From positions 1 to 64,000 of IMG/VR virus record IMGVR_UViG_3300031555_005762: DNA of 64,000 bases, one strand, 5' to 3'. Below, piece by piece: positions 3,615 to 63,100 of the stretch. The notes beneath the pieces were generated by a model. It had not been told where the DNA came from, ran no database searches, and saw nothing but the letters and a program-made list of their open reading frames with translations. Made by a program: the position numbers and the translations under genes. Origin of the DNA: a virus (lineage: Duplodnaviria > Caudoviricetes). Positions within the stretch are counted from its first letter, which is position 1; every line of letters starts with the position of its first letter.

Positions 3615-3937
3615 GATACTTCTCCGATCACTTCTTCCATATTCCTGAGTTGGGTTTCCAGCTCGTCAATGCGAACCTTACAACAGATCAGTTCTTTTAA
3701 CACAGAAGCTCTGTCAAAATCAGAAAAACGGTGTTCGCCGATTTTATAGAAATTCCGGAAGCCTGTTTTCATGTCATAGTCCGTAATATGATCAACAGTG
3801 CCGGCGTCGATATTGAACCACTCAGGTTCCGGCCAGCCTCGCTGCAGGCATTTTTCGCAGGTACAGACAGATGTGATGGTACCACGTTCACCGCGGATAG
3901 TGATTACTTCATCACCTGGTTGGAAATTATAAATCAT
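3611..3937 (-). CDS. Hypothetical protein (CxCxxC), flanked by a 27-bp direct repeat
   Basis: 108 aa ORF with ATGA overlaps on both sides. Confidence 0.75.
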   Translation of the reverse strand: MIYNFQPGDEVITIRGERGTITSVCTCEKCLQRGWPEPEWFNIDAGTVDHITDYDMKTGFRNFYKIGEHRFSDFDRASVLKELICCKVRIDELETQLRNMEEVIGEVS

Positions 3938-3960
3938 GATACTTCTCCGATCACTTCTTC
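3611..3960. repeat. 27-bp perfect direct repeat TCATGATACTTCTCCGATCACTTCTTC at 3611-3637 and 3934-3960
   Basis: Read directly; both copies encode the C-terminus EEVIGEVS-stop. Confidence 0.95.
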
Positions 3961-5883
3961 TATGTTCGGTTCTCTGTCGGGCATTCGCATCTGGGTTTCG
4001 TATGTATTGGTATCCCAGCTGTACTGACGGTCATATTCATCCTGAGTGGTATAGAATCTGCGGCTGGCCTGATCGTAGTACAGACCCATCTGAATGCCGC
4101 TTCTACCTCGGATACGATCTTTGATGATATTCAGGACTACATCGTATCCCATCAGGTTCTGAGGGAGTTCGCTGCCGTAGCCGAAGCCCTGTTTTTCCTG
4201 TTCGGTGATTTTCCGCAGGCCGAAGGTTCGGTGGGCAAGGTTGATGATATTGCTGGTGCCGGAGATGTCCTGAATGCCGACGTTTGAGGTTTTCTGCATT
4301 TTTCTTGGGTGGCAGACCAGGATGGTGGCGGCGTTGTATTTCTTGGAAAAGCTGATGAGCTGTTTGACGACTCTGGTCTGTTCCTTCAGCTCGTCGTCGC
4401 TGTCGTTGGTATCGATGGTCATGAAGTTATCGAGGATGAACAGGCGGCATCCGTATTTCTGGAGACTTCCCTTCATGGCTTCGAGAAGGCTGTCGATATC
4501 CTTGTCGAAGTCATCCCGATACAGGAACCACCGGCCGCGATAACGTTCATTGATGGCTTCTTCCACGCCGTCCTTCAGTTTCCAGTACGGGTCACCTTTT
4601 GGGGTAAGATATCCGTTTACGTTCCGGGGGCCGGCAAGCACGTAATTATGCCAGTCTTTCGACATACCTTCGGACAGCTCGCCGGAGAACAGCCATGTGT
4701 TTACGTCCTGCTCCAGTGCGTTGGCTACGATCTGGCACAGAATGGAGGATTTGCCGGAACCCGGCAGACCGGTCACTACGGTCAGAGTGCCGAAGAACAA
4801 ACGCATCAATTCTTTATCAAGACTGGTGATACCGGTTTCCACGCCGGGCATATCGTAAAAGTTTTTGGATTTGACATCGGACATATCCACCACAGAAGGG
4901 ATTGGGTTATCCTTGGCGGAGAGGATCAGGTTCATGACTTCCTGCTTGCCAAGATAGATCATGGCTTCGTTGACGTCCTTGATTCTGACGGTTCTGCCAT
5001 CCTCTGTGGTATGGGTATCGGGGATCTGCATGGTTTTACAACGCCAGCTTCCCAGTCTGGGGATGATGCCGTCCAGATACTTTTTACCGGATTCGTCGTT
5101 GTCGGCGGCGATGATGATAGAATCAAACTGTTCCAGCCAATTTCCGCATTGATTCACCCAATGTGTATTGCCATCACCCAAAGGGATGGACACGGCGTTC
5201 TGCCAGCCGCATTCAATGGCTGCGGCACAGTCCAGCTCTCCAGAACAAATCAGGAGGGGTTCTGTGGGGTTGATGCGGTTCATGTTGTACAGGAGGGGGC
5301 AGGTGTCGGCGTCCTTCTGGCACCAGTTTTTGATCTCTCCCGCCTCCTTATTGATTTTATGGCTGGGGCGGTACTTGACCATAGTGAGGACGTCGTTGGT
5401 ATCGTAGTAGTTGAAGACGATATTGCCCTGTTCGTCCTGGCGGATATCGAGGTAGTCGGCGGTCTTTGGAGAAATGCCCCGGAGGGCGAGGTAGGCGTAC
5501 ACTTTGGATTTATCGGTACACTCTACCTCTTTGGGATACCGGTACTGAGACATGGTCTTGACCTTATGCTCGCCCATGCTGTGCTGAATGCCGGCCAGTT
5601 CCAGTACCTTGGATGCAGCTTCAGCGAAGGTGAAACCCTTGGTCTGATATACGTCTACCAGATCCCAGCTGCGGTTACAGGCTCCAAAGCATTTATATCG
5701 GTGGTGTTTTTTATCATAAATGAAGCTGGGAGTGTCTTCTTCGTGGAACGGGCAGCGGGATTTCAGGTTCCGCTCATCGAAGTCCTGCAGTTCCAGTTCC
5801 TCTGCGATGATATGAGCCTGGGATTCACCCAGACGCTCCTTGGCTTCTTCTATCAGTTCTTTTTCAATGAGCGTACTGCTCAC
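3934..5883 (-). CDS. Primase-helicase (CHC2 zinc finger, TOPRIM, DnaB-like SF4 helicase; T7 gp4/Twinkle-like)
   Basis: CPFHEEDTPSF and CFGAC zinc finger; SGELD, ADNDESG TOPRIM; GLPGSGKS Walker A; ILDNFM; CHPRK; DISGTSNIINLAH. Confidence 0.93.
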   Translation of the reverse strand: MSSTLIEKELIEEAKERLGESQAHIIAEELELQDFDERNLKSRCPFHEEDTPSFIYDKKHHRYKCFGACNRSWDLVDVYQTKGFTFAEAASKVLELAGIQHSMGEHKVKTMSQYRYPKEVECTDKSKVYAYLALRGISPKTADYLDIRQDEQGNIVFNYYDTNDVLTMVKYRPSHKINKEAGEIKNWCQKDADTCPLLYNMNRINPTEPLLICSGELDCAAAIECGWQNAVSIPLGDGNTHWVNQCGNWLEQFDSIIIAADNDESGKKYLDGIIPRLGSWRCKTMQIPDTHTTEDGRTVRIKDVNEAMIYLGKQEVMNLILSAKDNPIPSVVDMSDVKSKNFYDMPGVETGITSLDKELMRLFFGTLTVVTGLPGSGKSSILCQIVANALEQDVNTWLFSGELSEGMSKDWHNYVLAGPRNVNGYLTPKGDPYWKLKDGVEEAINERYRGRWFLYRDDFDKDIDSLLEAMKGSLQKYGCRLFILDNFMTIDTNDSDDELKEQTRVVKQLISFSKKYNAATILVCHPRKMQKTSNVGIQDISGTSNIINLAHRTFGLRKITEQEKQGFGYGSELPQNLMGYDVVLNIIKDRIRGRSGIQMGLYYDQASRRFYTTQDEYDRQYSWDTNTYETQMRMPDREPNIEEVIGEVS

Positions 5884-9897: not shown

Positions 9898-11064
9898 TTA
9901 ATCATAGATATCGTTTCTGGTTCTGCCGTGGGAACTGTAATGTATATTGGCTGCAATATCCAGAAAAGTAGCGTCCATGGGCTTTTCATCCATATGGGTG
10001 ACTGCAAAATTTGAAGTCATGTTCTCAGAGGAATGACAACGAAGGTCTGATTGTACGGCAATGAGTGTAGAAGCAATAGATAGTTCTCCATACCGCAGAC
10101 TTCCCTGCCACGGATTGTCCACATTGGTCTGGTCGGCAGGGATACCAAGCTCTTCCCGGCTGGATTCTTTCCACATAGGGCCTGCGCCGTGTCGGGTTTC
10201 GTAAGTACGCATGACGTAACACACTTCTGTCGGGATTTTACTTCCTGTTTTTGTTTCCAGGTCGGCAAGCAGTCTGGCTGGTTCCTTCAGTCCTGTGCTG
10301 CAGGGGGTTGCATGGTGTTTGTCTTCGGCATAGTCAGGATCCAGACCGAGCCCCTGTCCGTTTTCGAACACCAGATGGTCGTACCTTGGCAGGATATCGT
10401 CCTCGGCCAGTTTTACGTGGTCAAGAAAAAAGTTCACGTCGTCCATGAAAACCTTGTCTATATCTGCACCCCAGTCGAACAGGAAGATAGAATCCTTCTC
10501 CGGGATCGTCATGTCGTATTCTTTGATTCTACGGGGCAGGTACTGTTCCCGTATGGCTTTCATGTACAGGAAGTAGGTGCTTCTGGAAAATTCGCGGAGT
10601 TTCTGCAGGGTCAGGGGTTCGTCGCTTTTCTTATTTCGTTCGATGGTTTCCCACACGCCACAGCCGCAAGAGCCGTGACGGTCTTCCCCGCGCATGGTTT
10701 CCACGGTCTGGTTGATATAGACGTCATACGGGGTTGTGACGATGCAGGAGGGGTTTACGTACACGGTAGGGTGTATACCCATCTTTTCCAGTTCTTCCCA
10801 TTCTTCGCGGAAAATCATAGGACTGACTATAAAGTTTCCTGCGATATAGGTATCTGCTCCGGCGAAGGTTCCGGATCCGATATGGCGGAACACATGGGTC
10901 TGGCCTTCCGGGGTTACTACGGTATGGCCTCTCTGGGCAGCACCGGCGGCGAAGACTGTACAGGTCTTTTTGCCGCTCTGTACGGCTCTGTGGGCGAAGT
11001 AGTCGGTCATGAGTCCTTTTCCTTCGTCACCGTATCTACATCCGATTACAACTTCAGCGGTCAT
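9898..11064 (-). CDS. Divergent adenylosuccinate synthetase-family protein (PurA-like, not PurZ)
   Basis: YGDEGKG P-loop, GHTVV, HIGSG, FENGQG, TYETRHGAGP, THMD; the aspartate-binding loop is replaced. Confidence 0.88.
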   Translation of the reverse strand: MTAEVVIGCRYGDEGKGLMTDYFAHRAVQSGKKTCTVFAAGAAQRGHTVVTPEGQTHVFRHIGSGTFAGADTYIAGNFIVSPMIFREEWEELEKMGIHPTVYVNPSCIVTTPYDVYINQTVETMRGEDRHGSCGCGVWETIERNKKSDEPLTLQKLREFSRSTYFLYMKAIREQYLPRRIKEYDMTIPEKDSIFLFDWGADIDKVFMDDVNFFLDHVKLAEDDILPRYDHLVFENGQGLGLDPDYAEDKHHATPCSTGLKEPARLLADLETKTGSKIPTEVCYVMRTYETRHGAGPMWKESSREELGIPADQTNVDNPWQGSLRYGELSIASTLIAVQSDLRCHSSENMTSNFAVTHMDEKPMDATFLDIAANIHYSSHGRTRNDIYD

Positions 11065-11299
11065 ACGTGTTCTCACTTTCTGGATTATTTTCTTTTTTCC
11101 GATATTTTTCCAATTCGATTTCCAGTTTTACAACGTATCGGTACAGAAGGAGATAACACAGAACGACGATGACAATGATGATTCTGGAAATCAAGAAAAA
11201 CAGAAAATCGGGATTCTGCGGGATCCAAAACAGGTTTATAAAGGATGCGCTAAGGGAACCTGTCAGCGAGATAAGACAGCATTTCTGATGATTTTTCAT
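11054..11299 (-). CDS. Small two-TM membrane protein
   Basis: 81 aa with hydrophobic segments, overlapping the start of the PurA-like gene. Confidence 0.65.
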   Translation of the reverse strand: MKNHQKCCLISLTGSLSASFINLFWIPQNPDFLFFLISRIIIVIVVLCYLLLYRYVVKLEIELEKYRKKENNPESENTYDR

Positions 11300-16132: not shown

Positions 16133-16435
16133 TTATATATCTTTGAATCCACCCATTTGGCGGTCGTCCGGAGGATCCGATGGTGTCAGCCTGCATCTTT
16201 TATTCAGCCATTCTTCCGCTGACTCGATGCTGTCATAATAGCATCCGTACAGTCGGAACATGGGACAGTCTTCGTCCGCCCCTGTGCTGCTGTCATGGAT
16301 TACCATATAAGACAAACCAGACCATGGATCTTCAAGGTATTCTTCCTCTTTGGGATTTCCTTCGTCATCGCAGAGATGCGCATGGAATTTTCCGCCGCAG
16401 AACGGACATGGTTTGGTACGCAGGTTTATGATCAT
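16133..16435 (-). CDS. Lar-family (restriction alleviation-like) zinc protein
   Basis: KPCPFCGG at the N-terminus, later DCP, ends EWLNKR. Confidence 0.6.
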   Translation of the reverse strand: MIINLRTKPCPFCGGKFHAHLCDDEGNPKEEEYLEDPWSGLSYMVIHDSSTGADEDCPMFRLYGCYYDSIESAEEWLNKRCRLTPSDPPDDRQMGGFKDI

Positions 16436-18675
16436 ACGCCCTCCTTATAGGTGGTAAGGAACTGTTTTCTGAGGGTACAGATATTGGTGCGGGTCTGGTC
16501 GGCGAGGGTCATACTGTCGGCAGGGGACATGGTTTCGTGCAGGTGTTTGCACCAGCCGTAGAAGGCGTTTTCCATGGGGGTCAGTAGGCTGCCGGTGTAT
16601 TTGTAACTGCCGGTCTTCAGGGTGGAGACTGCTACGCTTCTGAGGTTCTTCCATTTCTTGTAATACGCCAGTTTCATTTTGGTCATGAAGCCGTGGGCGT
16701 CTTCCAGAACGAAGCCTTCGATATATTCGCCGTTCCATGTATAGTCTTCCTTCAGCATTTCTTCAAACCACGGGACGAAGCTTTGCCAGCTGTCAATGGT
16801 ATAGGCGATCTTTTTGACCTCCAGTCCGAGGTGGTCTGCCAGATTCCACAGGTCTTCGTAAGAGAATTTTTCAAAATTCGGCTGGTTTTTGATGACATCC
16901 AGCAGGACAACCTTGGATTTCGGATACTCGATGATATGGGGATCTTTTTCCATATCACAGCATTCGAACACAAAGGAGACGTTGCCCTGCAGGACATACT
17001 CTTCGATGCGGTTCATGGTTTCTTCGCCGTACTGGCGGTACAGGTTTTCCCGGAAGATATCGGCGAAGGGGCCTCTGGGAGTGGATTTGCTGCAGATAAG
17101 CAGGTCATTCGTTGCGGGATCTCTGCCGACGATGCCCAGAAAACCGTTTTCCTTGACATAGGCTTTTACCGGGAAATGAAGTTTGTAGCGCAGGCTGGAA
17201 AGGGAGGTTTCGGGGCGTTCGTTGATAGCGAAGAACTTATCATAGCTTCTGGCTACGATTTCGTAGGTTTCGTTGTCGATGAACAGACCTCTTGCTTTGG
17301 TGGTGATGCTGTCCCATGCTTTGTCGTTGAATGCCTGTCTTGTGAAATTCAAAGAGGAAACTCTGCCAAAGCGGTTTTCCTTTACGTTCCGGCTGCCCCG
17401 CATTTCATGTACCATCTGATACGTAGTCATGTCTACGTTCTCGCCCGGAAGTCTGGCGTTGTCCTCGGCTTCCTTTTCTTCCTGGGTCTGGAAAACTTCG
17501 TTCTTAACGGCAGCGGTGGTGATACCTTCCTTTGTGATCTGCACGGCTCTCAGGAATCCGCCCCGTTCCACATCTCCTTCCAGATTGTATGTACAGTCTG
17601 TAGTCTGGATGGGGGATTTTTCGACGTTGCGGTGACCGTGGATCTGAATGGCATATCCGTTTGTGTGATTGCAGAAAGATTCGTCCGCAAGGTTTGCTTC
17701 GCTGTAGCGGCCGGTACCCCGGATCAGCTGGTCTGTGGCAACGGTAGTAAGCTCAACGGGCATGTTAGCCAGTCCGCCGTGGGTGATGAGGAAGGTTTTA
17801 TCATAGTAAGTGAAGTAGGCACACTGGCACAGGCGGCGATAGAATTCACGGATGGCTTTCTTGGAAACGCCGGCTTTGTCCAGCTGGGGTTTGGTGACGA
17901 ACTCGAATTCCCTGCTGTCGGCGATTTCGTCATTAGCGTACTTCCAGAGCCATCGTTCATGATTTCCTTCCAGAAATATCATGTTCTTGTGACCGGTCTG
18001 GGTCAGAAGGAAGTTTACGGTTTCGGCATTTTCGATGCCCCTGTCTACGTAGTCACCGGTAAAAATATATAGCTCGTCCGGTTGGATGCCGCCATCCTCT
18101 GCAAAATACTGCTGCAGGACGGTATTGCAGCCGTGGATATCACCGATTACGTGGATTTTCTTCCAGTCGGACAGGACGGCAGGTCTGTACCAGATCTTGT
18201 AGAGTTCGTCCGGCTTCAGAATCTGGATGCCTGCGGGGACTTTTTGGGTTTCGAAGCGGGAGAGCATTTTATCGATGACTTCTTCCGGTACCTGCTTCAG
18301 GAGGGGGCGGGTCATGTTTCGCTGCAGCAGGGTTTCTCTCGGGACATCGGTCATATCGATGCAGTAGATCCGGTAGCGGTACTGGTCGGCCAGGTCTCTG
18401 TAGCGTTTCATCTCTTCCGTTTTGGAATTGGTGGCGTCGATGACAGTGAATTCGCCATGCTGCATTCTGGTTTCGAGAATCTGAAACAGGGTTTTCCATA
18501 CCAGTTTGTCGTTTTCCTGACTGATACGGCAGAAACCGCTTGTGTCCATGGTGGGACTGGCGCACATAAGACGGATGTCATCGGCGCAGAGGGAATAGGG
18601 TTTCAGGGCGTGTTCTTCGATATATGTGGATTTTCCGCAGCCGGGTGCGCCGCGGAACAGGAGGAGGACTCTCAC
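16432..18675 (-). CDS. Trifunctional RNA repair enzyme: polynucleotide kinase, metallophosphoesterase, ATP-dependent RNA ligase
   Basis: GAPGCGKS and IDATN kinase; GDIHG, GDYVDRG, GNHE, HGG, HGH phosphoesterase; ligase motifs KENG, FE, EGFVL, KMK. Confidence 0.92.
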   Translation of the reverse strand: MRVLLLFRGAPGCGKSTYIEEHALKPYSLCADDIRLMCASPTMDTSGFCRISQENDKLVWKTLFQILETRMQHGEFTVIDATNSKTEEMKRYRDLADQYRYRIYCIDMTDVPRETLLQRNMTRPLLKQVPEEVIDKMLSRFETQKVPAGIQILKPDELYKIWYRPAVLSDWKKIHVIGDIHGCNTVLQQYFAEDGGIQPDELYIFTGDYVDRGIENAETVNFLLTQTGHKNMIFLEGNHERWLWKYANDEIADSREFEFVTKPQLDKAGVSKKAIREFYRRLCQCAYFTYYDKTFLITHGGLANMPVELTTVATDQLIRGTGRYSEANLADESFCNHTNGYAIQIHGHRNVEKSPIQTTDCTYNLEGDVERGGFLRAVQITKEGITTAAVKNEVFQTQEEKEAEDNARLPGENVDMTTYQMVHEMRGSRNVKENRFGRVSSLNFTRQAFNDKAWDSITTKARGLFIDNETYEIVARSYDKFFAINERPETSLSSLRYKLHFPVKAYVKENGFLGIVGRDPATNDLLICSKSTPRGPFADIFRENLYRQYGEETMNRIEEYVLQGNVSFVFECCDMEKDPHIIEYPKSKVVLLDVIKNQPNFEKFSYEDLWNLADHLGLEVKKIAYTIDSWQSFVPWFEEMLKEDYTWNGEYIEGFVLEDAHGFMTKMKLAYYKKWKNLRSVAVSTLKTGSYKYTGSLLTPMENAFYGWCKHLHETMSPADSMTLADQTRTNICTLRKQFLTTYKEGV

Positions 18676-54806: not shown

Positions 54807-55282
54807 TGGATACAAGAAAAATCGAAGCGGATCTGGCCGACCTGTATAAATACAAGAACCTGCCGGATTATCTGTCGCAGTTTTACAGAGAGCTGTATAG
54901 GAAAAACATACCTCATTTCCTCGTTTCAAGAGACGGCCCTATTTATCTGCATACATCACGCGGCACGATATTCTCTGAGGATTTCGATAGGATTGTTGTA
55001 GGAGACTATGGAGCGTTCATTGAGTTCTCTGCTCCGGCGGAACCAGATCTGTTCATTACACAGCCCGGGCAAGAATACAGAGAGAAGGAACCGTACAGGA
55101 AGAATGTCAAGTATCTCTGGCTGACCGTAGACGACGGCAGCGGGATCAAGATTTACAAGCAGCTTCGCGGCGTGACATATGCGGATTATGTACCGGGAAA
55201 ATATTATGTTAGCGTTCATGAGGTTCTTGGAACAAACATCAAGGAGGGTATAAATGATTCAGATTCGAAGAGGAGTCTTTGA
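54803..55282 (+). CDS. Conserved phage protein
   Basis: RIVVGDYGAFIEF, KYLWL, IYKQLRGVTYADY.PGKYYVS. Confidence 0.8.
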   Translation: MMDTRKIEADLADLYKYKNLPDYLSQFYRELYRKNIPHFLVSRDGPIYLHTSRGTIFSEDFDRIVVGDYGAFIEFSAPAEPDLFITQPGQEYREKEPYRKNVKYLWLTVDDGSGIKIYKQLRGVTYADYVPGKYYVSVHEVLGTNIKEGINDSDSKRSL

Positions 55283-55799
55283 GACGAACTCCAGCAGTAC
55301 ACACAGTATTTGTATTTCCAGAGGAGGATACAAGATTCCGGAGATGACGTATTTCCGGATTGATGAATGGGGGTGGGAGATCGGTATTGAGTATGATACA
55401 GCATCGTATTTGTATACGGCGATCATTACCTGTTTTGAGGAAAAGGAAACGGATATGCTCCTTGCGTCCCTGAAGGATACGTTGGATGGTCTTGGAATCC
55501 GGTACGAAATGGAAGATCCGGAGTGGAAAATGTACAGCTGGGGGCGAGATACAGAAAAAGGCGGCATTGACCATGGCAGTGAACTGTTGGAATTTGTAGA
55601 AGCGGTTCTGAATGATTCTGATCTGCTCCTGCGGTATCTTTATGGAGATAGCTTTATTGCTACCGGCAATGACAACAATGATCGGCATGATATGTCGGAT
55701 GCAGCCTTTTCGACGATTTATGACTTTGAAACTCGTGAATACGTTGGCAATCCGCATCACGATGAAGAACATTATGAGTATTTTTACAAAGGAAACTGA
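55254..55799 (+). CDS. FETNSSS-motif protein 1
   Basis: MIQIRRGVFETNSSSTHSICI. Confidence 0.85.
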   Translation: MIQIRRGVFETNSSSTHSICISRGGYKIPEMTYFRIDEWGWEIGIEYDTASYLYTAIITCFEEKETDMLLASLKDTLDGLGIRYEMEDPEWKMYSWGRDTEKGGIDHGSELLEFVEAVLNDSDLLLRYLYGDSFIATGNDNNDRHDMSDAAFSTIYDFETREYVGNPHHDEEHYEYFYKGN

Positions 55800-55808
55800 G
55801 GTGATTTA

Positions 55809-56321
55809 ATGCTGCAAATCAGACAGGGCGTGTTTGAAACCAATTCCAGCTCGTCCCATAGTCTTGTGATCAAGAAACAGGGCGGCAAGTACACACACGA
55901 AGAGCTTATGGAGAATTTCGGGTGGTGTCTTGATGTTCCTGGCCGGGAAGGATACTGGCAGCCGTGGTCAGATGATCTTTATTTCGGTCGGTCACCGTTT
56001 CAGGTGCTGGACGGATTCAGAGAGAAACTTGCTTATGCGTATGCCAATACTGCTCCGGCCAAATGGGATGATGTAACGGCTGTAGCACATGAGATTATGC
56101 CGGAATATCTGGGGATGAAAACTATAGGCGATGATATGTGGTGCGGTACAGACGATATGGCATTATACGACTGGCTTGATAAGGCTGGTGTAAGCCTGAG
56201 AGAATTTTTGGAAGACAGCCGATATGTGGTCATCTGTGACGGTGATGAATACTGCGTATGGGACAGCCTGAAACAGTCCGGACTGGTAGACAAGCTTGTT
56301 ATCGACAAGGAAATTGTATAA
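55809..56321 (+). CDS. FETNSSS-motif protein 2
   Basis: MLQIRQGVFETNSSSSHSLVI. Confidence 0.85.
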   Translation: MLQIRQGVFETNSSSSHSLVIKKQGGKYTHEELMENFGWCLDVPGREGYWQPWSDDLYFGRSPFQVLDGFREKLAYAYANTAPAKWDDVTAVAHEIMPEYLGMKTIGDDMWCGTDDMALYDWLDKAGVSLREFLEDSRYVVICDGDEYCVWDSLKQSGLVDKLVIDKEIV

Positions 56322-56330
56322 GGAGAATGT

Positions 56331-56690
56331 ATGAAGCAGATCAGAAGAAGCGTTTTTGAAACGAACAGCAGCAGTACGCACAGCATTACGATGTGTTTGA
56401 AATCAGAGTATGACCGCTGGGAAGCCGGTGAGTTTTACTGGAGCCGCTGGGATTGTGAGTTGGTACCGGTAAATAAAGCTGACAAAGAGGTTCTCGACGG
56501 TATCGGAGCATCTGGTGAGATGTATTCCAAGGATGAAATCGATAAAATCCGGCGAGGTGACTACGGATTCTATACATACGATGAATTCTGGAACGGCGGA
56601 TACATTGAATATGAAGACTATTGTGAGTCTTTCTTGATACCGGGTGGCGAAAAGGTGATCGCCTTTGGTTATTACGGACAGGATTATTGA
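56331..56690 (+). CDS. FETNSSS-motif protein 3
   Basis: MKQIRRSVFETNSSSTHSITM. Confidence 0.85.
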   Translation: MKQIRRSVFETNSSSTHSITMCLKSEYDRWEAGEFYWSRWDCELVPVNKADKEVLDGIGASGEMYSKDEIDKIRRGDYGFYTYDEFWNGGYIEYEDYCESFLIPGGEKVIAFGYYGQDY

Positions 56691-56697
56691 GGTGGCG

Positions 56698-57585
56698 ATG
56701 AAGATACTTGGCATTTATACGAATAACGACTATCAGGTTGCCATCTTTGAAGACGGGACCAAAATCCGGTACAACAAACTGGAATCATTTCATCCTGTGA
56801 AGCCGGAGTGTATTGATCTGAAAATTACCAATCGCTGTACCGGTACCGGCTGTGCCTACTGCCATGAGGATTCTTCTCCCGACGGACAGCACGGAGACAT
56901 TCTGAATCTTCCCTTTTTGGATTCTTTACTGCCGTACACAGAACTTGCCATCGGCGGTGGGAATCCTTTGGAACATCCGGATCTGACTGCGTTTCTGGCT
57001 GAGTGCCGCAAGCGGAAGATTATTGCCAACATGACAGTGAACCAGAAGCATTTTGTGGACAACTGGATGCAGATAGATTCTATGCTTACTTTTCAGGAAA
57101 TTTACGGGCTCGGTGTATCTGTGACCCGGGTGGACGAAGAGTTTCTAAATTTCGTTCGGTACATGAACGGAATGAATATTGTGTTTCATGTGATCAATGG
57201 CGTGATTGAACCGACAGAGCTGGAGAAGCTGTACGGAATGGGATACAAGATTCTGATTCTTGGGTACAAGCAGTTCCGGCGTGGTGAGAAGTTCTATTCC
57301 CCTGCTGTACAGGCCAGAATGGATATGATGTCTGCGAAACTGCCGGAGATTCTGACGCAGTTTAATGTGGTTAGCTTTGACAATTTGGCGCTGAAACAGC
57401 TTCCGGTAAAAGAACAGATGTCATACGAGGAATGGGAAAAGTTCTATATGGGCGATGACGGTCAGTTTACCATGTACATAGACGCTGTGAAGCAGGAGTT
57501 CGCGAAGAGCTCGACTTCAACGGAACGCTGGCCGATTACCGGCGATATTGCAAAAATGTTTGGGGTGGTGAGAAATCAGTTTTGA
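56698..57585 (+). CDS. Radical SAM enzyme (CX4CX2C)
   Basis: IDLKITNRCTGTGCAYCHEDS; ELAIGGGNPLEHP; NMTVN; GLGVS; HVING. Confidence 0.9.
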   Translation: MKILGIYTNNDYQVAIFEDGTKIRYNKLESFHPVKPECIDLKITNRCTGTGCAYCHEDSSPDGQHGDILNLPFLDSLLPYTELAIGGGNPLEHPDLTAFLAECRKRKIIANMTVNQKHFVDNWMQIDSMLTFQEIYGLGVSVTRVDEEFLNFVRYMNGMNIVFHVINGVIEPTELEKLYGMGYKILILGYKQFRRGEKFYSPAVQARMDMMSAKLPEILTQFNVVSFDNLALKQLPVKEQMSYEEWEKFYMGDDGQFTMYIDAVKQEFAKSSTSTERWPITGDIAKMFGVVRNQF

Positions 57586-58562
57586 AAAATGTGTCACGAG
57601 GTGTGAATGATTTTAGTTCCATATTTCCTCAGTATATGCCATATTTGAAGGATAAAGATGATGGATATAAGCACACACCTCATTCTAATAAGTCTGTGTG
57701 GTGGAAATGTCCCGATTGTGGACATGAATTCAAACAATCTTTTAACAAATTTGTTTCCAAGCTAAATAAATGTCCAGCCTGTTCTGATACAGCGAGCTAT
57801 GCGGTTAAATTCTTATGTTGTGTATTTAACCAGCTTAGTGTTCCGTTCCAGATGGAAAAGAGCTTTGACTGGCTACCGCGGCGCAGGTATGATTTTTGGC
57901 TCCCTGAACAAGATGTAATTATCGAGATACATGGCAAACAGCATTATTCTATCGGTGATCCTTGGAACTCTGACGGCAAGCAAAAATACATAGATTTGAT
58001 GAAGGAAGAAAAGGCTTACGAAAATGGATATACAGGAAGGTACATTGTTTTAATGTATGATGTGTCCGGAGACGGAAGTCGTTTTGTTACACAAATACTT
58101 GGCAGTAATCTACAGACTATGTTTTCGATGGAAAATGTAGACTGGTCTGCCTGTAACCAATATGCTATTTTAAGCAATTCAGTTAAAGAGGTATGTGACA
58201 TTTATAATTCTGGAGTCGTAGATCTAACTCAAATCTGCCGCATGACGCATTATTCTTCTCTGAACACGATTCGTGAAAAGTTGAAGAAAGGCGCTTTATT
58301 GGGGTGGTGTGATTACTCTGCCGCTGTGGCATTGCAGAATGCTCACCGTAAGAGCGGAGATCATGTTTTAGCGACTATGTGTAATTCCGTAGTGTGTTTT
58401 GACCTGGACGGGAATAAATTATGTACCTATCCAAGTCTACAGGAAGCTCAGCGAAGATGCGGTATATCTCACATTTGGGAATGTTGTGTTGGGAAAAGGG
58501 AGACTGCGGGAGGTTTTCGCTGGATGTATGAAAAAGATTGTATAGTGAGAGGTGAATGTTGA
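57582..58562 (+). CDS. Free-standing homing endonuclease-like protein (zinc ribbon, Vsr/DUF559-like PD-(D/E)XK, NUMOD1)
   Basis: VWWKCPDCGHEF...CPAC; RYDFWL...IIEIHGKQHY; TYPSLQEAQR...TAGGFRWMY; AT-rich. Confidence 0.8.
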   Translation: MKNVSRGVNDFSSIFPQYMPYLKDKDDGYKHTPHSNKSVWWKCPDCGHEFKQSFNKFVSKLNKCPACSDTASYAVKFLCCVFNQLSVPFQMEKSFDWLPRRRYDFWLPEQDVIIEIHGKQHYSIGDPWNSDGKQKYIDLMKEEKAYENGYTGRYIVLMYDVSGDGSRFVTQILGSNLQTMFSMENVDWSACNQYAILSNSVKEVCDIYNSGVVDLTQICRMTHYSSLNTIREKLKKGALLGWCDYSAAVALQNAHRKSGDHVLATMCNSVVCFDLDGNKLCTYPSLQEAQRRCGISHIWECCVGKRETAGGFRWMYEKDCIVRGEC

Positions 58563-60188: not shown

Positions 60189-63100
60189 TTGACAAGCAGA
60201 CCTTTATATACATATAAGTTCAAGTCTTCCAGATTGAAGGAAGCTAAATATGATCTGAATATATCTTTCAAGGAAGCAAAAAAGAGAAATGAAGTAATCT
60301 CGCTCGCTGATTCTCAGATTCTGCGAAGCATCCGGTACATACAGGGGCGAGAGATCGATTACGAGGAACTGGAACGGCTGATCTCCAGAAGAGATTATCT
60401 CCGGCGGCAGAAGGGTGCTCGAAGAGAGTATACTGAGTTACAGGAAACGCAGGATAAGATTAATGATATGCTGATGGTTCCTGAATATGTGACGGTTTTT
60501 ATAGAGGAAAGCTCACATTATGAGTATATTTTCAGAAACGGCATTCGCCTAAATGGAAAGACATACAAACGCCTATCTTGTTCTGCCGGTCAGGCAAGAA
60601 ACTCGACAGTGGTTCTATGTGATACTGAAATCATAGACAGGCTCAAAGAGATCTTAAACAATGGGCGTGATATGTCGAAGCCGCTGGCCCCCAGTAAGTT
60701 CAATGCATATTTTGGACTCGCTGGATCATCAACTCATATTGTGTCCGAACCAAAGTTTATTGTTATCCGGGACTATGAAAACACAACGTCATTCATGGCG
60801 AACTATCTTACGGAAAATCCGGACTGGGACAGAGACGACACGCTGGATGTACGGATGATCGAAGATATGCCCATGAACCGCACGGACGGCATGGGATTGA
60901 TTTCTCCGGAACTGTCCGAGAAATGGGCCAAGGAACTGGGTCTTGATTACATACCGGCGCAGTGGTGTATCCGTCAGTCCTTTATCAAAGGAATGGTTTG
61001 CACCTTCCCTATCCATCAGTTCTGCGAAGAAGTGGCTGGCGGGAATTATATGGTGGAAACGATCTACAAAGACGAAGCCGGTAATCCGATTGTGGCTGAC
61101 CTGCGGGATTACGATATGATTCTGACGGAGTCTCAGTTTAAGCTGTGGGACAGCTACCCTTCTCTGGATGTGTACATAGAAAATTATCATAAGAATCACC
61201 TGTACTGGGGCGTCAGCCAGTTTACACCGAAACAGGCCAAAGATACACTTACACTGAATTATCAGTTTATACAGACGCTTGATCTGGATGAGGAAGGTGT
61301 AAGAGAACTGTGCGGGCAGTTTGTTGACTGGATCAGCGGTGTGTCCTGTGACAATTATTCGTATATGCTTCTTTATCTGATGGGTGTTGGAGACGACGAG
61401 GACAAGTTGCGAAACTGGATGCGAAGCAGCGACAACTGGTGGCTGAAGTCTCTGATGATGTGTCCAGACCTGATGAATGATAAGTACACACGGGCAAAAA
61501 TCCGGGATCTGATACGGAACCGGATTCAGAACGGCTGCATGGGTGAGATTTGTGTAGATGGAAACTTCCAGGTGATGGTATCGGATCCGTATGGGTTTAT
61601 GCAGCATGCCTGCGGTCTTCCGGTGACGGGGCTTCTGGGCAAGGACGAATTCTATTGCAGCTACTGGAATGAGCGTGGTGTTACGCAGGTGGATTCCATG
61701 CGATCGCCTCTTACATATCGCAGTGAGCACGTTATTGCGAATCTGGTGAAGAATGAAGAAACGGAGAAGTGGTATCGGTATTGTTATCTTGGGTTTATTC
61801 TGAATTATCATGGACATGATACAGTGATGTACGCCGGGTCGGATCAATCGGGTTCTGCCTTATGGCATAACATGGTGAACCAGCAGAGCTGGGTGTCTGC
61901 ATACGCAGGCTAACGGGGGACAGCTACGGGCGCAAGCCTATGCCAATCCCGTGCGAAATTTGGTGTTATATCAGAGAATGGGAGGTTAATGGAATATAGA
62001 GAAATCCCTTTTTTAAGAGGGTATAAGATCAGTGAATACGGAGATGTTTTATCCAAACGGAATGGGAAACCATTAAGAATCTATGCAAAACCATTAGGTG
62101 ACGATAGATGTTGTATCCGTGAAACGTATTATCTCATATCAGAGCTTGTTGCATCAACTTATCTTGGTGAAATGGATTTGGATGTTTATTGTGTATGTCA
62201 TAAAGATGGAAATCAACATAATAACCATGTATCCAATCTTGAGTGGCATAAACGAAAGAAAGATTTGATATATAAACCTATACCAGGATATCCTAATTAT
62301 GAGATATCTGAGCTGGGCGATGTATATAATCTTGTGTATCGAAAGCATATGGGAGCCCATCCCGATCAGGACGGTTACTATAAAGTTCATATATCTAATA
62401 ATGGTAAGACAGACACTTGGTTCGTACACCGTCTTGTAGCTCTTACATATTTAGAGAAGCCGGAAGGTTGCAATGTTGTAAATCATTTAGATTCTGATAG
62501 GAAGAACAATGATTACAGGAACTTGGAATGGACTACTGCTCAAGGGAATTATGAGCATGGTATGCTTTATGGTTATAATCAGCCGCAAGGTGAAAATAAT
62601 CCTCGTAGTAAATTAACAGAAGATCAAGTAAAAGACATCCGTTATTTATTTTCGAATGGGTACCGTGTAGCTGATATCCAAAAGAAATATGATTTTGTAC
62701 GTTGGGAAGAAATAAAGAATATTGTGACTTATAGAGCGTGGAAAAACGTAAACTGATCTAACACCAATAAACGTGTAACGACTATCCCTTGGCTCCCCGG
62801 CTAATAAATGGAGCAATAGGAGTACGGCGGCCGCGAGGTCGTGGGTGAGAACCCCTTAAATGGAAGTGCCATGCCTCAACAATGTTGAGTGAAGATATAG
62901 TCTACTCCGTGGGTATGTACCCAGAAATATCCCGAAAGGGACGGTATAAAGGTTCGATCAAATGGTCGCGCTGCGTAGCGATGCGCAGATGAAAATGTGG
63001 TGAACCTGTAAATACAGGGTGTCGCCGGGACGGTTAGGAACCGCAGGAAATGGCGGTTTATCCGGCGGCTGACAGGGGAGGCTGAATGAAGTATGCTAAT

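What the first reader, a model, noticed from the sequence alone, without database searches (positions are those of the whole stretch)
55254..57585. Three tandem IRxxVFETNSSSxHS proteins plus a radical SAM enzyme: candidate undescribed protein-modification system
Three adjacent genes (181, 170 and 119 aa) share an almost invariant 15-residue N-terminal motif but diverge afterwards. They are followed 7 nt later by a radical SAM gene. A fixed Ser-rich motif on otherwise variable proteins next to a radical SAM enzyme looks like a recognition or modification tag, as in RiPP or anSME-type maturases. It could also be a self-processing Ser site (pyruvoyl or Ntn chemistry) or a shared assembly strand of a heteromeric enzyme. 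I know of no characterised function for this motif.
Basis: partly seen in the sequence, partly recalled or inferred. Interest (0 to 1): 0.8.

Follow-up and report, generated by a model that had tools for sequence, protein, structure and literature searches.

The report
Phage radical-SAM enzyme with tagged proteins
Three small phage proteins that all begin with the same roughly 20-residue serine-rich tag sit directly in front of a radical-SAM enzyme, and this enzyme-plus-tag pairing recurs in hundreds of phages and some bacteria with no described function, so it is probably an unrecognised protein-modification (or tag-dependent enzyme) system.

Summary
ORFs 55254-55799, 55809-56321 and 56331-56690 all start M-x-Q-I-R-x-x-V-F-E-T-N-S-S-S-x-H-S. 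A radical SAM gene (ATG 56698, end 57585) follows 7 nt later.

The tag is a portable N-terminal module. It sits on at least two body families that match only over about the first 37 residues (class A about 180 aa, class B about 95-155 aa), plus many minor ones. None has a Pfam domain.

Tag and enzyme travel together in both directions:
- 80 of 83 tag-seeded loci contain the enzyme.
- 77 of 79 enzyme-seeded loci contain a tagged ORF.

The pairing occurs from Microcystis phage Ma-LMM01 to Lak megaphages and gut phages. Several natural tag-body-enzyme fusions exist. The tag profile finds 8,949 clusters among 1.84 billion representative proteins.

The enzyme has a single Fe-S cluster. Its model is closest to the peptide maturases SkfB and SuiB, including their N-terminal region, but it has no SPASM cysteines. 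In the class A model, tag residues 1-12 are not packed on the body.

My best reading (about 45%) is that the enzyme takes the tag into its active site and modifies it. The main rival (about 30%) is that the tagged proteins are subunits or adaptors of the enzyme. The chemistry is unknown.

This scan already noted the same system on other DNA (e1-5642161 and others). I found no publication describing it.

The parts
55254..55799 (+). Tagged protein 1 (181 aa), canonical class A body. Tag is residues 1-22. Body motifs are IDH (106-107), TGNDN (137-141) and a C-terminal YFYKGN.
   Evidence: ORF. phrog_28997 at E 1.5e-20. 778 homologues, none with Pfam. Invariant residues. AF2 pLDDT 88.5, with residues 1-12 below 50. 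No PDB fold match.
55809..56321 (+). Tagged protein 2 (170 aa), divergent class A-type body.
   Evidence: ORF. phrog_28997 matches residues 2-26 only. Groups with class A by single-linkage BLAST of the bodies. The direct profile match to class A reaches only about residue 42.
56331..56690 (+). Tagged protein 3 (119 aa), class B body: tag, then TMC..EY..W..G, a variable acidic insert, and a C-terminal ..PGGEKVIAFGYYGQDY.
   Evidence: ORF. Class B alignment A3. Shares only the first ~37 residues with class A (hhalign). No PDB sequence match.
56698..57585 (+). Radical SAM enzyme (295 aa from the ATG; a TTG at 56665 is an alternative start). It has a single [4Fe-4S] motif C47/C52/C55, a GGGNPL SAM motif and an N-terminal three-strand sheet (Y-x-N-x-x-Y...DGTKIR).
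   Evidence: phrog_16999 at E 5e-48. Weak Pfam Radical_SAM hit. Alignment A2. AF2 pLDDT 92.4. Foldseek/VIA top hits are SuiB and SkfB. Only three conserved Cys columns in 218 relatives.
57582..58562 (+). Homing-endonuclease-like gene (DUF4379 zinc finger plus NUMOD1) overlapping the radical SAM stop codon. It is a mobile passenger, not part of the module.
   Evidence: Pfam and PHROG hits. Present in only 4 of 83 loci.

Best explanation
This is a conserved phage 'tag plus radical SAM' module. One single-cluster radical SAM enzyme has a fold closest to peptide (RiPP) maturases and carries a small N-terminal beta-sheet. It works on a set of small, acidic, otherwise unrelated proteins through their shared N-terminal tag. 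In the class A model the tag consists of a free arm (residues 1-12; the secondary-structure assignment suggests a hairpin, Q-I-R / turn / V-F-E, but at low confidence), a hinge (T-N-S-S-S) and the first core strand of the body (S-T-H-S-I-x-I). The inferred mechanism is as follows. The arm docks on the enzyme and places the E-T-N-S-S-S-x-H segment next to SAM and the cluster. The 5'-deoxyadenosyl radical abstracts a hydrogen from a tag residue, most plausibly one of the three serines. The resulting covalent change matures each tagged protein for its own function. This would resemble formylglycine or glycyl-radical installation more than leader-guided peptide tailoring. Shown here: the anatomy, the obligate linkage, the fusions and the fold relationships. 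Inferred: docking, the modified residue, the chemistry and the biological role.
For: (1) Linkage. 80 of 83 tag-seeded viral/phage loci have the enzyme adjacent on the same strand. 62 of 77 loci from genomes and MAGs contain it. In 4 of 5 records without an adjacent copy, the enzyme lies elsewhere in the record. 77 of 79 enzyme-seeded loci carry a tagged ORF.
(2) One enzyme serves 1-7 tagged genes.
(3) The tag is portable. Class A and class B profiles match only over ~37 residues. Bodies fall into 21 BLAST families. R5, E10, N12, S13-15 and H17 are invariant in 79 diverse members.
(4) The tag is at the extreme N-terminus in almost all members.
(5) In the confident class A model the first 12 residues are unpacked (pLDDT <50), although they are the most conserved part.
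(6) The enzyme model's best structural matches are SkfB (Z 17.9) and SuiB (Z 17.8). Only these alignments span the model's first ~30 residues, matching the N-terminal region of those maturases (Foldseek).
(7) Natural tag-body-enzyme fusions keep the tag at the N-terminus.
(8) Arm positions -7, -4 and -2 agree among paralogues of one genome more than in any of 2000 shuffles, although their bodies are unrelated. This fits one shared partner.
(9) Published precedent: radical SAM maturation of a folded protein at a Ser/His motif (SHRSS) in the HXS system (PMC13128918).
Against: No modification has been observed and I could not model a complex. Substrate-enzyme fusions are unusual, whereas fusions of subunits are common, so favour the holoenzyme rival at least as much. 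The enzyme lacks the auxiliary clusters used by most peptide-modifying relatives. I found no enzyme column that clearly covaries with tag variants. In the fused bacterial clade, N12 and H17 are replaced (..ETSSSSAS..), so not all 'invariant' residues are essential. The usual set of exactly two conserved body families (A plus B) resembles a three-subunit enzyme as much as two clients. The within-genome concordance of the arms could also come from gene conversion.
Confidence: 0.45

Rival explanations
1. Holoenzyme/adaptor model. The tagged proteins are not substrates but stoichiometric subunits of the radical SAM enzyme. The tag inserts into or completes the active site, supplying E, S-S-S and H as binding or catalytic residues. 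The variable bodies bind different targets (small molecule, nucleotide, RNA or host protein), like interchangeable specificity subunits.
For: At least 10 protein clusters are natural fusions of a tagged body to the enzyme. In the two full-tag fusion loci examined (L241, L243), the fused gene is the only tagged gene within 8 kb. The commonest layout is one class A, one class B and the enzyme, tightly coupled. Class A bodies have their own invariant polar residues (D106, H107, N139, D140, K179), suggesting a site in the body. The tag is retained even when tethering makes docking unnecessary.
Against: The model does not explain why 1-7 bodies with unrelated folds all need the identical tag. The extreme N-terminal position and the unpacked arm suit a client equally well. 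No known radical SAM enzyme uses such a subunit.
Confidence: 0.3
2. Pathway model. The tagged proteins are enzymes or ligand-binding proteins of one divergent superfamily, and the N-terminal loop is a phosphate- or metal-binding or catalytic loop. They and the radical SAM enzyme act successively on a small molecule or nucleic-acid base without touching each other.
For: The strand-then-Ser/Thr-rich-loop layout recalls phosphate-binding loops (own knowledge). The module sits among nucleotide-metabolism, replication and RNA-repair genes in many phages: dCMP deaminase, RNA ligase, kinase; an aaRS-like gene in Ma-LMM01; Thg1 in L241. Bodies of many families end in a similar strand plus a G/D/N-rich turn (read from the sequences).
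Against: No neighbour other than the enzyme is conserved across clades. Class A and B share nothing detectable beyond ~37 residues, so no common active-site scaffold exists. The class A model matches no nucleotide-binding fold. The proteins are very acidic, with median pI about 4.5.
Confidence: 0.1
3. Self-processing site. The N-S-S-S junction undergoes an autocatalytic N-to-O acyl shift, giving an N-terminal Ser nucleophile or a pyruvoyl group at residue 13. The radical SAM enzyme is only a pathway neighbour.
For: Ser-Ser and X-Ser junctions are the cleavage sites of pyruvoyl and Ntn enzymes (own knowledge). Order in the class A model begins around residue 13.
Against: The radical SAM linkage and the fusions are left unexplained. 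The bodies are too diverse to provide one self-processing fold. The residues upstream of the putative cut (R5, F9, E10) are as invariant as those after it.
Confidence: 0.05
4. Capsid-targeting sequence. As in T4 internal proteins, a shared N-terminal tag directs polymorphic tandem proteins into the prohead and is removed by the head protease. The tag contains V-F-E, resembling the T4 (L/I)-x-E cleavage site.
For: The tandem, polymorphic, acidic small proteins with a common N-terminal tag in large tailed phages match the T4 internal-protein pattern (own knowledge).
Against: The tag is near-identical across phages as different as Ma-LMM01, Lak and gut phages. It is obligately linked and sometimes fused to a radical SAM enzyme. 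It also occurs in a bacterial chromosomal context without phage genes (L244). In the window it lies in the replication/early region, not near head genes.
Confidence: 0.03

Closest known systems
RiPP radical SAM maturases with an N-terminal peptide-binding domain (SkfB PDB 6EFN, SuiB 5V1T, CteB 5WGG, PqqE 6C8V)
   Same: They are the best structural matches of the enzyme model: Z 17.9 and 17.8 for SkfB and SuiB, with the alignment spanning the N-terminal region. One enzyme serves several genes that share an N-terminal recognition segment and differ afterwards.
   Different: The enzyme has no SPASM/twitch auxiliary-cluster cysteines and no helices of a full RRE. The partners are folded 90-320 aa proteins, not short peptides. 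The conserved segment probably contains the site itself rather than only a leader. The scores against peptide-maturase models fall far below their family cut-offs.
HXS antiphage system (HxsA matured by radical SAM enzymes HxsB/HxsC with HxsD; Nat Commun 2026, PMC13128918)
   Same: It shows radical SAM-dependent maturation of a folded protein at a Ser/His-rich motif (SHRSS, +8 Da) together with N-terminal processing. It belongs to the phage-bacterium conflict.
   Different: HXS has two two-cluster enzymes plus HxsD. Its motif is a repeat, not an N-terminal tag. It is a bacterial defence system, whereas this module is phage-borne. No NCBIfam Hxs model was among the hits at E<=1.
Activases that install a catalytic group on a client protein: anSME (formylglycine in sulfatases) and glycyl-radical activating enzymes
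   Same: A radical SAM enzyme acts on a short, near-invariant motif of folded client proteins, and one enzyme can serve several clients. Like the glycyl-radical activases, it has a single cluster.
   Different: The clients have neither a C/S-x-P-x-R nor an RVxG motif. anSME needs two auxiliary clusters that are absent here. anSME ranks lower structurally (Z 13.8). The BssD-type model scores only E 0.063.
T4 internal proteins with a capsid-targeting sequence
   Same: Tandem, polymorphic small proteins share only a short N-terminal tag.
   Different: The T4 tag is lineage-specific and tied to the head protease. This tag is near-invariant across unrelated phages and tied, sometimes fused, to a radical SAM enzyme.

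Membership tests
Radical SAM superfamily | CxxxCxxC-type three-Cys motif for the SAM-binding [4Fe-4S] cluster, and a partial TIM-barrel core | tested here: met
   C47/C52/C55 are invariant. The window has Cx4Cx2C; 182 of 218 relatives have Cx3Cx2C. The model aligns to many radical SAM structures at Z 10-18. Pfam PF04055 scores only 17 bits, below its 29.5 cut-off.
SPASM/twitch peptide maturases (SuiB, SkfB, CteB, PqqE, anSME) | C-terminal Cys-rich domain binding one or two auxiliary Fe-S clusters | tested here: not met
   Only the three cluster-motif columns have Cys in more than 30% of 218 relatives.
SPASM/twitch peptide maturases (SuiB, SkfB, CteB, PqqE, anSME) | N-terminal RiPP recognition element (winged helix-turn-helix with a three-strand sheet) or equivalent peptide-binding domain | tested here: inconclusive
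   The model has three N-terminal strands (3-9, 12-17, 22-25). The SkfB and SuiB alignments start at model residues 1-3, while all other hits start near residue 30. No helices of a full RRE are present.
RiPP systems | Short precursor peptide with a leader and a separate modified core | tested here: not met
   The partners are 90-320 aa. Class A gives a confident folded model (pLDDT 88.5).
Glycyl-radical enzyme / activase pairs | Client with a C-terminal RVxG[FWY] glycyl-radical loop; activase matching PflA/NrdG/BssD models | tested here: not met
   No such motif is seen in classes A or B. The BssD model scores E 0.063 and 12 bits against a 496-bit cut-off.
HXS system (HxsA-D) | Paired two-cluster enzymes HxsB/HxsC, HxsD, and an effector with His-Xaa-Ser repeats | tested here: not met
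   There is one single-cluster enzyme only. No Hxs NCBIfam model is among the hits at E<=1. The tag is not a repeat. System features are taken from PMC13128918.
PHROG phrog_28997 (tagged proteins) and phrog_16999 (enzyme) | Significant match to the family profile | tested here: met
   ORF1 scores E 1.5e-20 over the whole length. ORF2 and ORF3 match on the tag only. The enzyme scores E 5.2e-48. phrog_28997 is labelled 'unknown function' and phrog_16999 only 'Fe-S oxidoreductase' (category 'other'); neither has a characterised function.
T4-type capsid-targeted internal proteins | Packaging into the virion and removal of the tag by the prohead protease | not testable with these tools
   This needs virion proteomics. 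Genomic context (replication/early region) and the bacterial chromosomal fusion L244 argue against it.

The most novel reading that the evidence does not exclude
The radical SAM enzyme installs a previously unknown catalytic cofactor or stable protein radical on the N-terminal E-T-N-S-S-S-x-H segment. This would turn a very large, unannotated superfamily of phage proteins (about 9,000 clusters at 50% identity) into active enzymes or inhibitors used during infection. It would be a new class of post-translationally generated active site, specific to viruses of bacteria.
Probability: 0.2. Interest if true: 0.9.

Novelty: new variant of a known kind. Interest (0 to 1): 0.78.

Why it matters
Radical SAM maturation of peptides is well studied, but maturation of folded proteins by such enzymes is known for only a few cases: sulfatases, glycyl-radical enzymes and, recently, HxsA. 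Here a compact enzyme without auxiliary clusters is tied to a near-invariant 20-residue tag. That tag occurs on thousands of unannotated phage proteins, from a cultured cyanophage (Ma-LMM01 gp128/gp130) to Lak megaphages and many gut phages. The enzyme gene often carries inteins or has homing endonuclease genes next to it. If the tag is modified, this is new enzymology and a new layer of regulation in phage infection. If the tagged proteins are instead interchangeable subunits, it is a new architecture for radical SAM enzymes. Either result would annotate a large block of viral dark matter. The system can be tested directly with four small genes.

Tried and rejected
- **Family libraries.** Pfam, NCBIfam and PADLOC on the three tagged proteins, and Pfam on 79 diverse relatives, gave nothing significant.
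- **PDB sequence profiles.** Classes A and B found nothing.
- **Fold searches of the class A model.** Foldseek PDB had best E 0.35. VIA against 48,161 chains had best Z 2.7. BFVD returned only a family member at TM 0.5. I do not claim a new fold, because the model cannot be validated and the BFVD model of a homologue differs.
- **Search for longer relatives of ORF1.** It gave a single hit, P0121. This is an upstream kinase/HD gene read through into a tagged gene whose internal Met is kept, so it is an artefact or a recoded stop and not a fusion.
- **Mutual information between tag-arm variants and enzyme columns.** The top values barely exceeded the shuffled maxima and no column stood out.
- **Conserved third partner.** Clustering all neighbouring ORFs found no family shared across clades. 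RNA-repair, nucleotide-metabolism and cysteine desulfurase genes are clade-specific neighbours.
- **DNA-level repeat as the cause of the tag identity.** Rejected because of synonymous differences.
- **Literature.** Searches for 'ETNSSS', 'phage-encoded radical SAM', Ma-LMM01 plus radical SAM, and phage anti-defence maturases found no description.
- **tRNA genes.** None in the window.
Full report
**1. What is in the window**

The window is part of a 73,366-bp IMG/VR virus record that CheckV estimates to be 43% complete. Three + strand ORFs lie at 55254-55799 (181 aa), 55809-56321 (170 aa) and 56331-56690 (119 aa). They begin MIQIRRGVFETNSSSTHSI, MLQIRQGVFETNSSSSHSL and MKQIRRSVFETNSSSTHSI and then diverge.

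The gaps between genes are 9, 9 and 7 nt. The next gene is a radical SAM enzyme. Relatives align from its ATG at 56698, which gives 295 aa ending at 57585. A homing-endonuclease-like gene overlaps its stop codon.

The three tags use different synonymous codons, and each gene has its own Shine-Dalgarno sequence. The identity is therefore maintained at protein level.

**2. No known family**

Pfam, NCBIfam and PADLOC find nothing for the tagged proteins. PHROGs places them in phrog_28997 (unknown function) and the enzyme in phrog_16999, labelled only 'Fe-S oxidoreductase'.

Profile searches of PDB sequences find nothing for either body class. A Pfam scan of 79 diverse tagged proteins gives no credible domain. 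Full-text searches for the motif and for phage radical SAM maturation systems found no description.

**3. The pairing is general and obligate**

tblastn against isolated and curated phages finds the ORF1 family only in Microcystis phages of the Ma-LMM01 group and in Lak megaphages. Both groups also hold the closest relatives of the enzyme.
- In Ma-LMM01, gp130 (tagged) and gp128 (enzyme) are separated by one small gene.
- In Lak-C1 the enzyme is followed by five tandem tagged genes.

Across the fetched loci:

| Seed and source | Result |
|---|---|
| 80 IMG/VR loci seeded with the ORF1 family, plus the window, Ma-LMM01 and Lak-C1 | 80 of 83 have the enzyme adjacent on the same strand; nearly all have two or more tagged genes |
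| 5 records without an adjacent enzyme | 4 carry it elsewhere, one of them split by an insertion |
| 79 new IMG/VR loci seeded with the enzyme | 77 have a tagged ORF on the same strand |
| 77 loci from species-representative genomes and MAGs | 62 contain the enzyme; 1-7 tagged genes each |

Some of the genome loci come from isolates: Thomasclavelia cocleata DSM 1551, Acetivibrio ethanolgignens and Eubacterium plexicaudatum ASF492.

Among 117 non-redundant loci the tagged genes lie only upstream of the enzyme in 105. The number of tagged genes per locus in that set is:

| Tagged genes per locus | 1 | 2 | 3 | 4 | 5 | 6 |
|---|---|---|---|---|---|---|
| Loci | 33 | 60 | 14 | 4 | 3 | 3 |

A profile of diverse tagged proteins finds 8,949 clusters at E<=0.001 among 1.84 billion representatives. 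The match starts at residue 1 in almost all of the best 150.

**4. The tag is a portable module**

After removing the first 22 residues, 355 tagged proteins fall into two large body families and about 19 small BLAST groups:
- **Class A:** about 180 aa, 171 members. It includes ORF1, with ORF2 as a divergent member.
- **Class B:** about 95-155 aa, 125 members. It includes ORF3.
- **Small groups:** one is a Cys-rich class (C..FF....L.DC.C).

Profile-profile comparison of classes A and B matches only the first ~37 residues. Over 79 diverse members R5, E10, N12, S13, S14, S15 and H17 are invariant, and M1, F9 and T11 nearly so.

Class A has further invariant residues of its own: D106, H107, T137-G138-N139-D140, and a C-terminal Y-x-x-K-G-N. 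Class B keeps TMC..EY..W..G, a variable acidic insert and a C-terminal ..TTPSGE.VVAFGYYGYD.

The bodies are strongly acidic (median pI about 4.5) and rich in aromatic residues. The tag itself is basic.

**5. Structure predictions**

- **Class A (ORF1, 46-sequence alignment):** the model is confident (mean pLDDT 88.5, pTM 0.85), except for residues 1-12, which are below 50. A core strand starts at residue 15. The most conserved residues thus form an unpacked arm, a hinge at N-S-S-S and the first strand of the body. The secondary-structure assignment gives short strands at 3-5 and 8-10, which hints at a hairpin, but that stretch is the low-confidence part.
- **Fold comparison of class A:** the model has no convincing match in the PDB. 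Foldseek's best E is 0.35, and VIA against 48,161 chains gives a best Z of 2.7. BFVD returns only a family member at TM 0.5. I do not claim a new fold.
- **Enzyme (pLDDT 92.4):** its best matches are the peptide maturases SuiB and SkfB (Foldseek E 2e-7 to 1e-5). By VIA, SkfB scores Z 17.9 and SuiB Z 17.8, about 2.4 units above BlsE, viperins and EpeE. Only the SkfB and SuiB alignments span the model's first ~30 residues, which form a three-strand sheet.
- **Cluster content:** among 218 relatives only the three cluster-motif cysteines are conserved. The enzyme therefore has a single cluster and is not a SPASM/twitch member.

**6. Fusions and mobile elements**

A search for longer relatives of the enzyme gives 131 clusters. 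Most carry inteins, shown by LAGLIDADG and Hint Pfam domains. In L155 the intein sits inside the GGGNPL SAM-binding motif.

A smaller set are true fusions of a tagged body to the enzyme, with the tag at the N-terminus:
- **Full or near-full tag:** P0353, P0364, P0380 and P0388.
- **Reduced tag (..ETSSSSAS..):** P0355, P0358, P0370, P0372, P0381 and P0384.

The start of the body of P0364 matches class A. In the two full-tag fusion loci examined (L241, L243) the fused gene is the only tagged gene within 8 kb. The contexts differ: an integrative element next to Thg1-like and metallophosphatase genes (L241), a phage-like contig (L243) and, for the reduced-tag fusion P0373, a bacterial chromosome (L244).

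These fusions show that tagged body and enzyme act together physically. They do not say whether the body is a substrate or a subunit.

**7. Concerted variation of the arm**

In 84 non-redundant loci with two or more tags, arm positions -7, -4 and -2 (relative to E10) agree among paralogues of one genome more than in any of 2000 shuffles. Positions +6 and +8 do not. Because the bodies in one genome are unrelated, this points to a shared constraint on the arm, either a common partner or gene conversion. I found no enzyme column that clearly covaries with these variants.

**8. Interpretation**

My best-supported reading (about 0.45) is a client model. The arm docks on the enzyme, possibly on its N-terminal sheet, and the E-T-N-S-S-S-x-H segment enters the active site and is modified. 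Each tagged protein is thereby matured.

The degree of conservation is that of a catalytic or cofactor-forming motif, such as the sulfatase or glycyl-radical motifs, rather than a docking leader. The HXS system provides published precedent for radical SAM maturation of a folded protein at a Ser/His motif (PMC13128918).

The main rival (about 0.3) is that the tagged proteins are subunits or adaptors, with the tag completing the active site. The fusions and the regular A+B+enzyme layout favour this reading.

Lesser rivals are:
- a diffusible pathway of separate enzymes;
- self-processing at the N-S-S-S junction;
- a T4-like capsid-targeting tag.

The linkage, the fusions and the bacterial chromosomal context argue against all three.

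**9. Earlier notes of this scan**

After forming the reading above, I found that this scan had noted the same tag system in other genomes (e1-5642161, e1-5689103, e1-5923131, e1-5923126). It had also noted a related R-x-GFVSNSSSSSF tag with another radical SAM clade (e1-4723335, e1-2848238).

The follow-up report on e1-5642161 states that fusions exist, which I confirmed independently. It also states that a prediction puts the tag in the active site, which I could not test. Note e1-5335955 led me to the HXS paper, which I read.

**10. Verdict**

The feature is real and highly non-random. It is a member of a very large, unannotated, mostly viral system. Its function is unproven, but it is almost certainly centred on an interaction between tag and radical SAM enzyme. 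I rate it a new variant of a known kind (radical SAM-dependent maturation), with high interest.

Noticed in passing
window 9898-11076 (-): A 392-aa ORF matches phrog_1211, labelled '2-aminooxy adenylosuccinate synthetase', at E 3.6e-53. It may be a PurZ-type adenylosuccinate synthetase, which would suggest that this phage replaces adenine by 2-aminoadenine in its DNA.
   Followed up: no
window 16432-18675 (-): A 747-aa protein combines polynucleotide kinase, phosphoesterase and RNA ligase matches (phrog_8238 at E 4e-223). It resembles a Pnkp-type RNA repair enzyme. RNA-repair genes (RNA ligase, kinase/HD) also lie just upstream of the tag module in many related phages.
   Followed up: partly
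window 60189-61913 (+) and 61989-62756 (+): A 574-aa ORF matches Pfam RdRP (PF05183, E 8e-12) and phrog_8308/25339, so it may be a single-subunit RNA polymerase of the double-psi barrel type. It is followed directly by an HNH/NUMOD4 homing endonuclease, so the polymerase gene may be split.
   Followed up: no
L155:3592-5701 and proteins P0270-P0387: More than 100 clusters of this radical SAM enzyme carry inteins with LAGLIDADG domains. In L155 the intein sits inside the GGGNPL SAM-binding motif. In the window a homing-endonuclease-like gene (57582-58562) overlaps the enzyme's stop codon.
   Followed up: partly
L241 (P0353), L243 (P0364), L244 (P0373): Tag-body-enzyme fusions occur outside typical phage contexts. 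One lies on an integrative element next to Thg1-like and metallophosphatase genes. One lies in a bacterial chromosome between housekeeping genes; that clade has a reduced tag (..ETSSSSAS..).
   Followed up: partly
P0121 (490 aa): A kinase/HD-domain protein is read through into a tagged class A protein whose own Met-Ile-Gln start is kept. This suggests a lost or recoded stop codon in that phage.
   Followed up: no
L143, L147, L156-L158, L160, L161, L131, L151: A minor class of tagged proteins carries a conserved Cys-rich motif near the C-terminus (C..FF....L.DC.C). It could bind a metal or cluster.
   Followed up: no
window about 48000: Coding strand and AT skew switch here. Replication genes (DNA polymerase 2-2878, primase-helicase 3934-5883) and most ORFs before 48 kb are on the - strand. 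The tag module and its neighbours after 48 kb are on the + strand.
   Followed up: no
L117/L118, L127: Arrays of three to six tagged genes lie on contigs binned as Methanobrevibacter. These could be mis-binned phage contigs or a virus of a methanogen.
   Followed up: no
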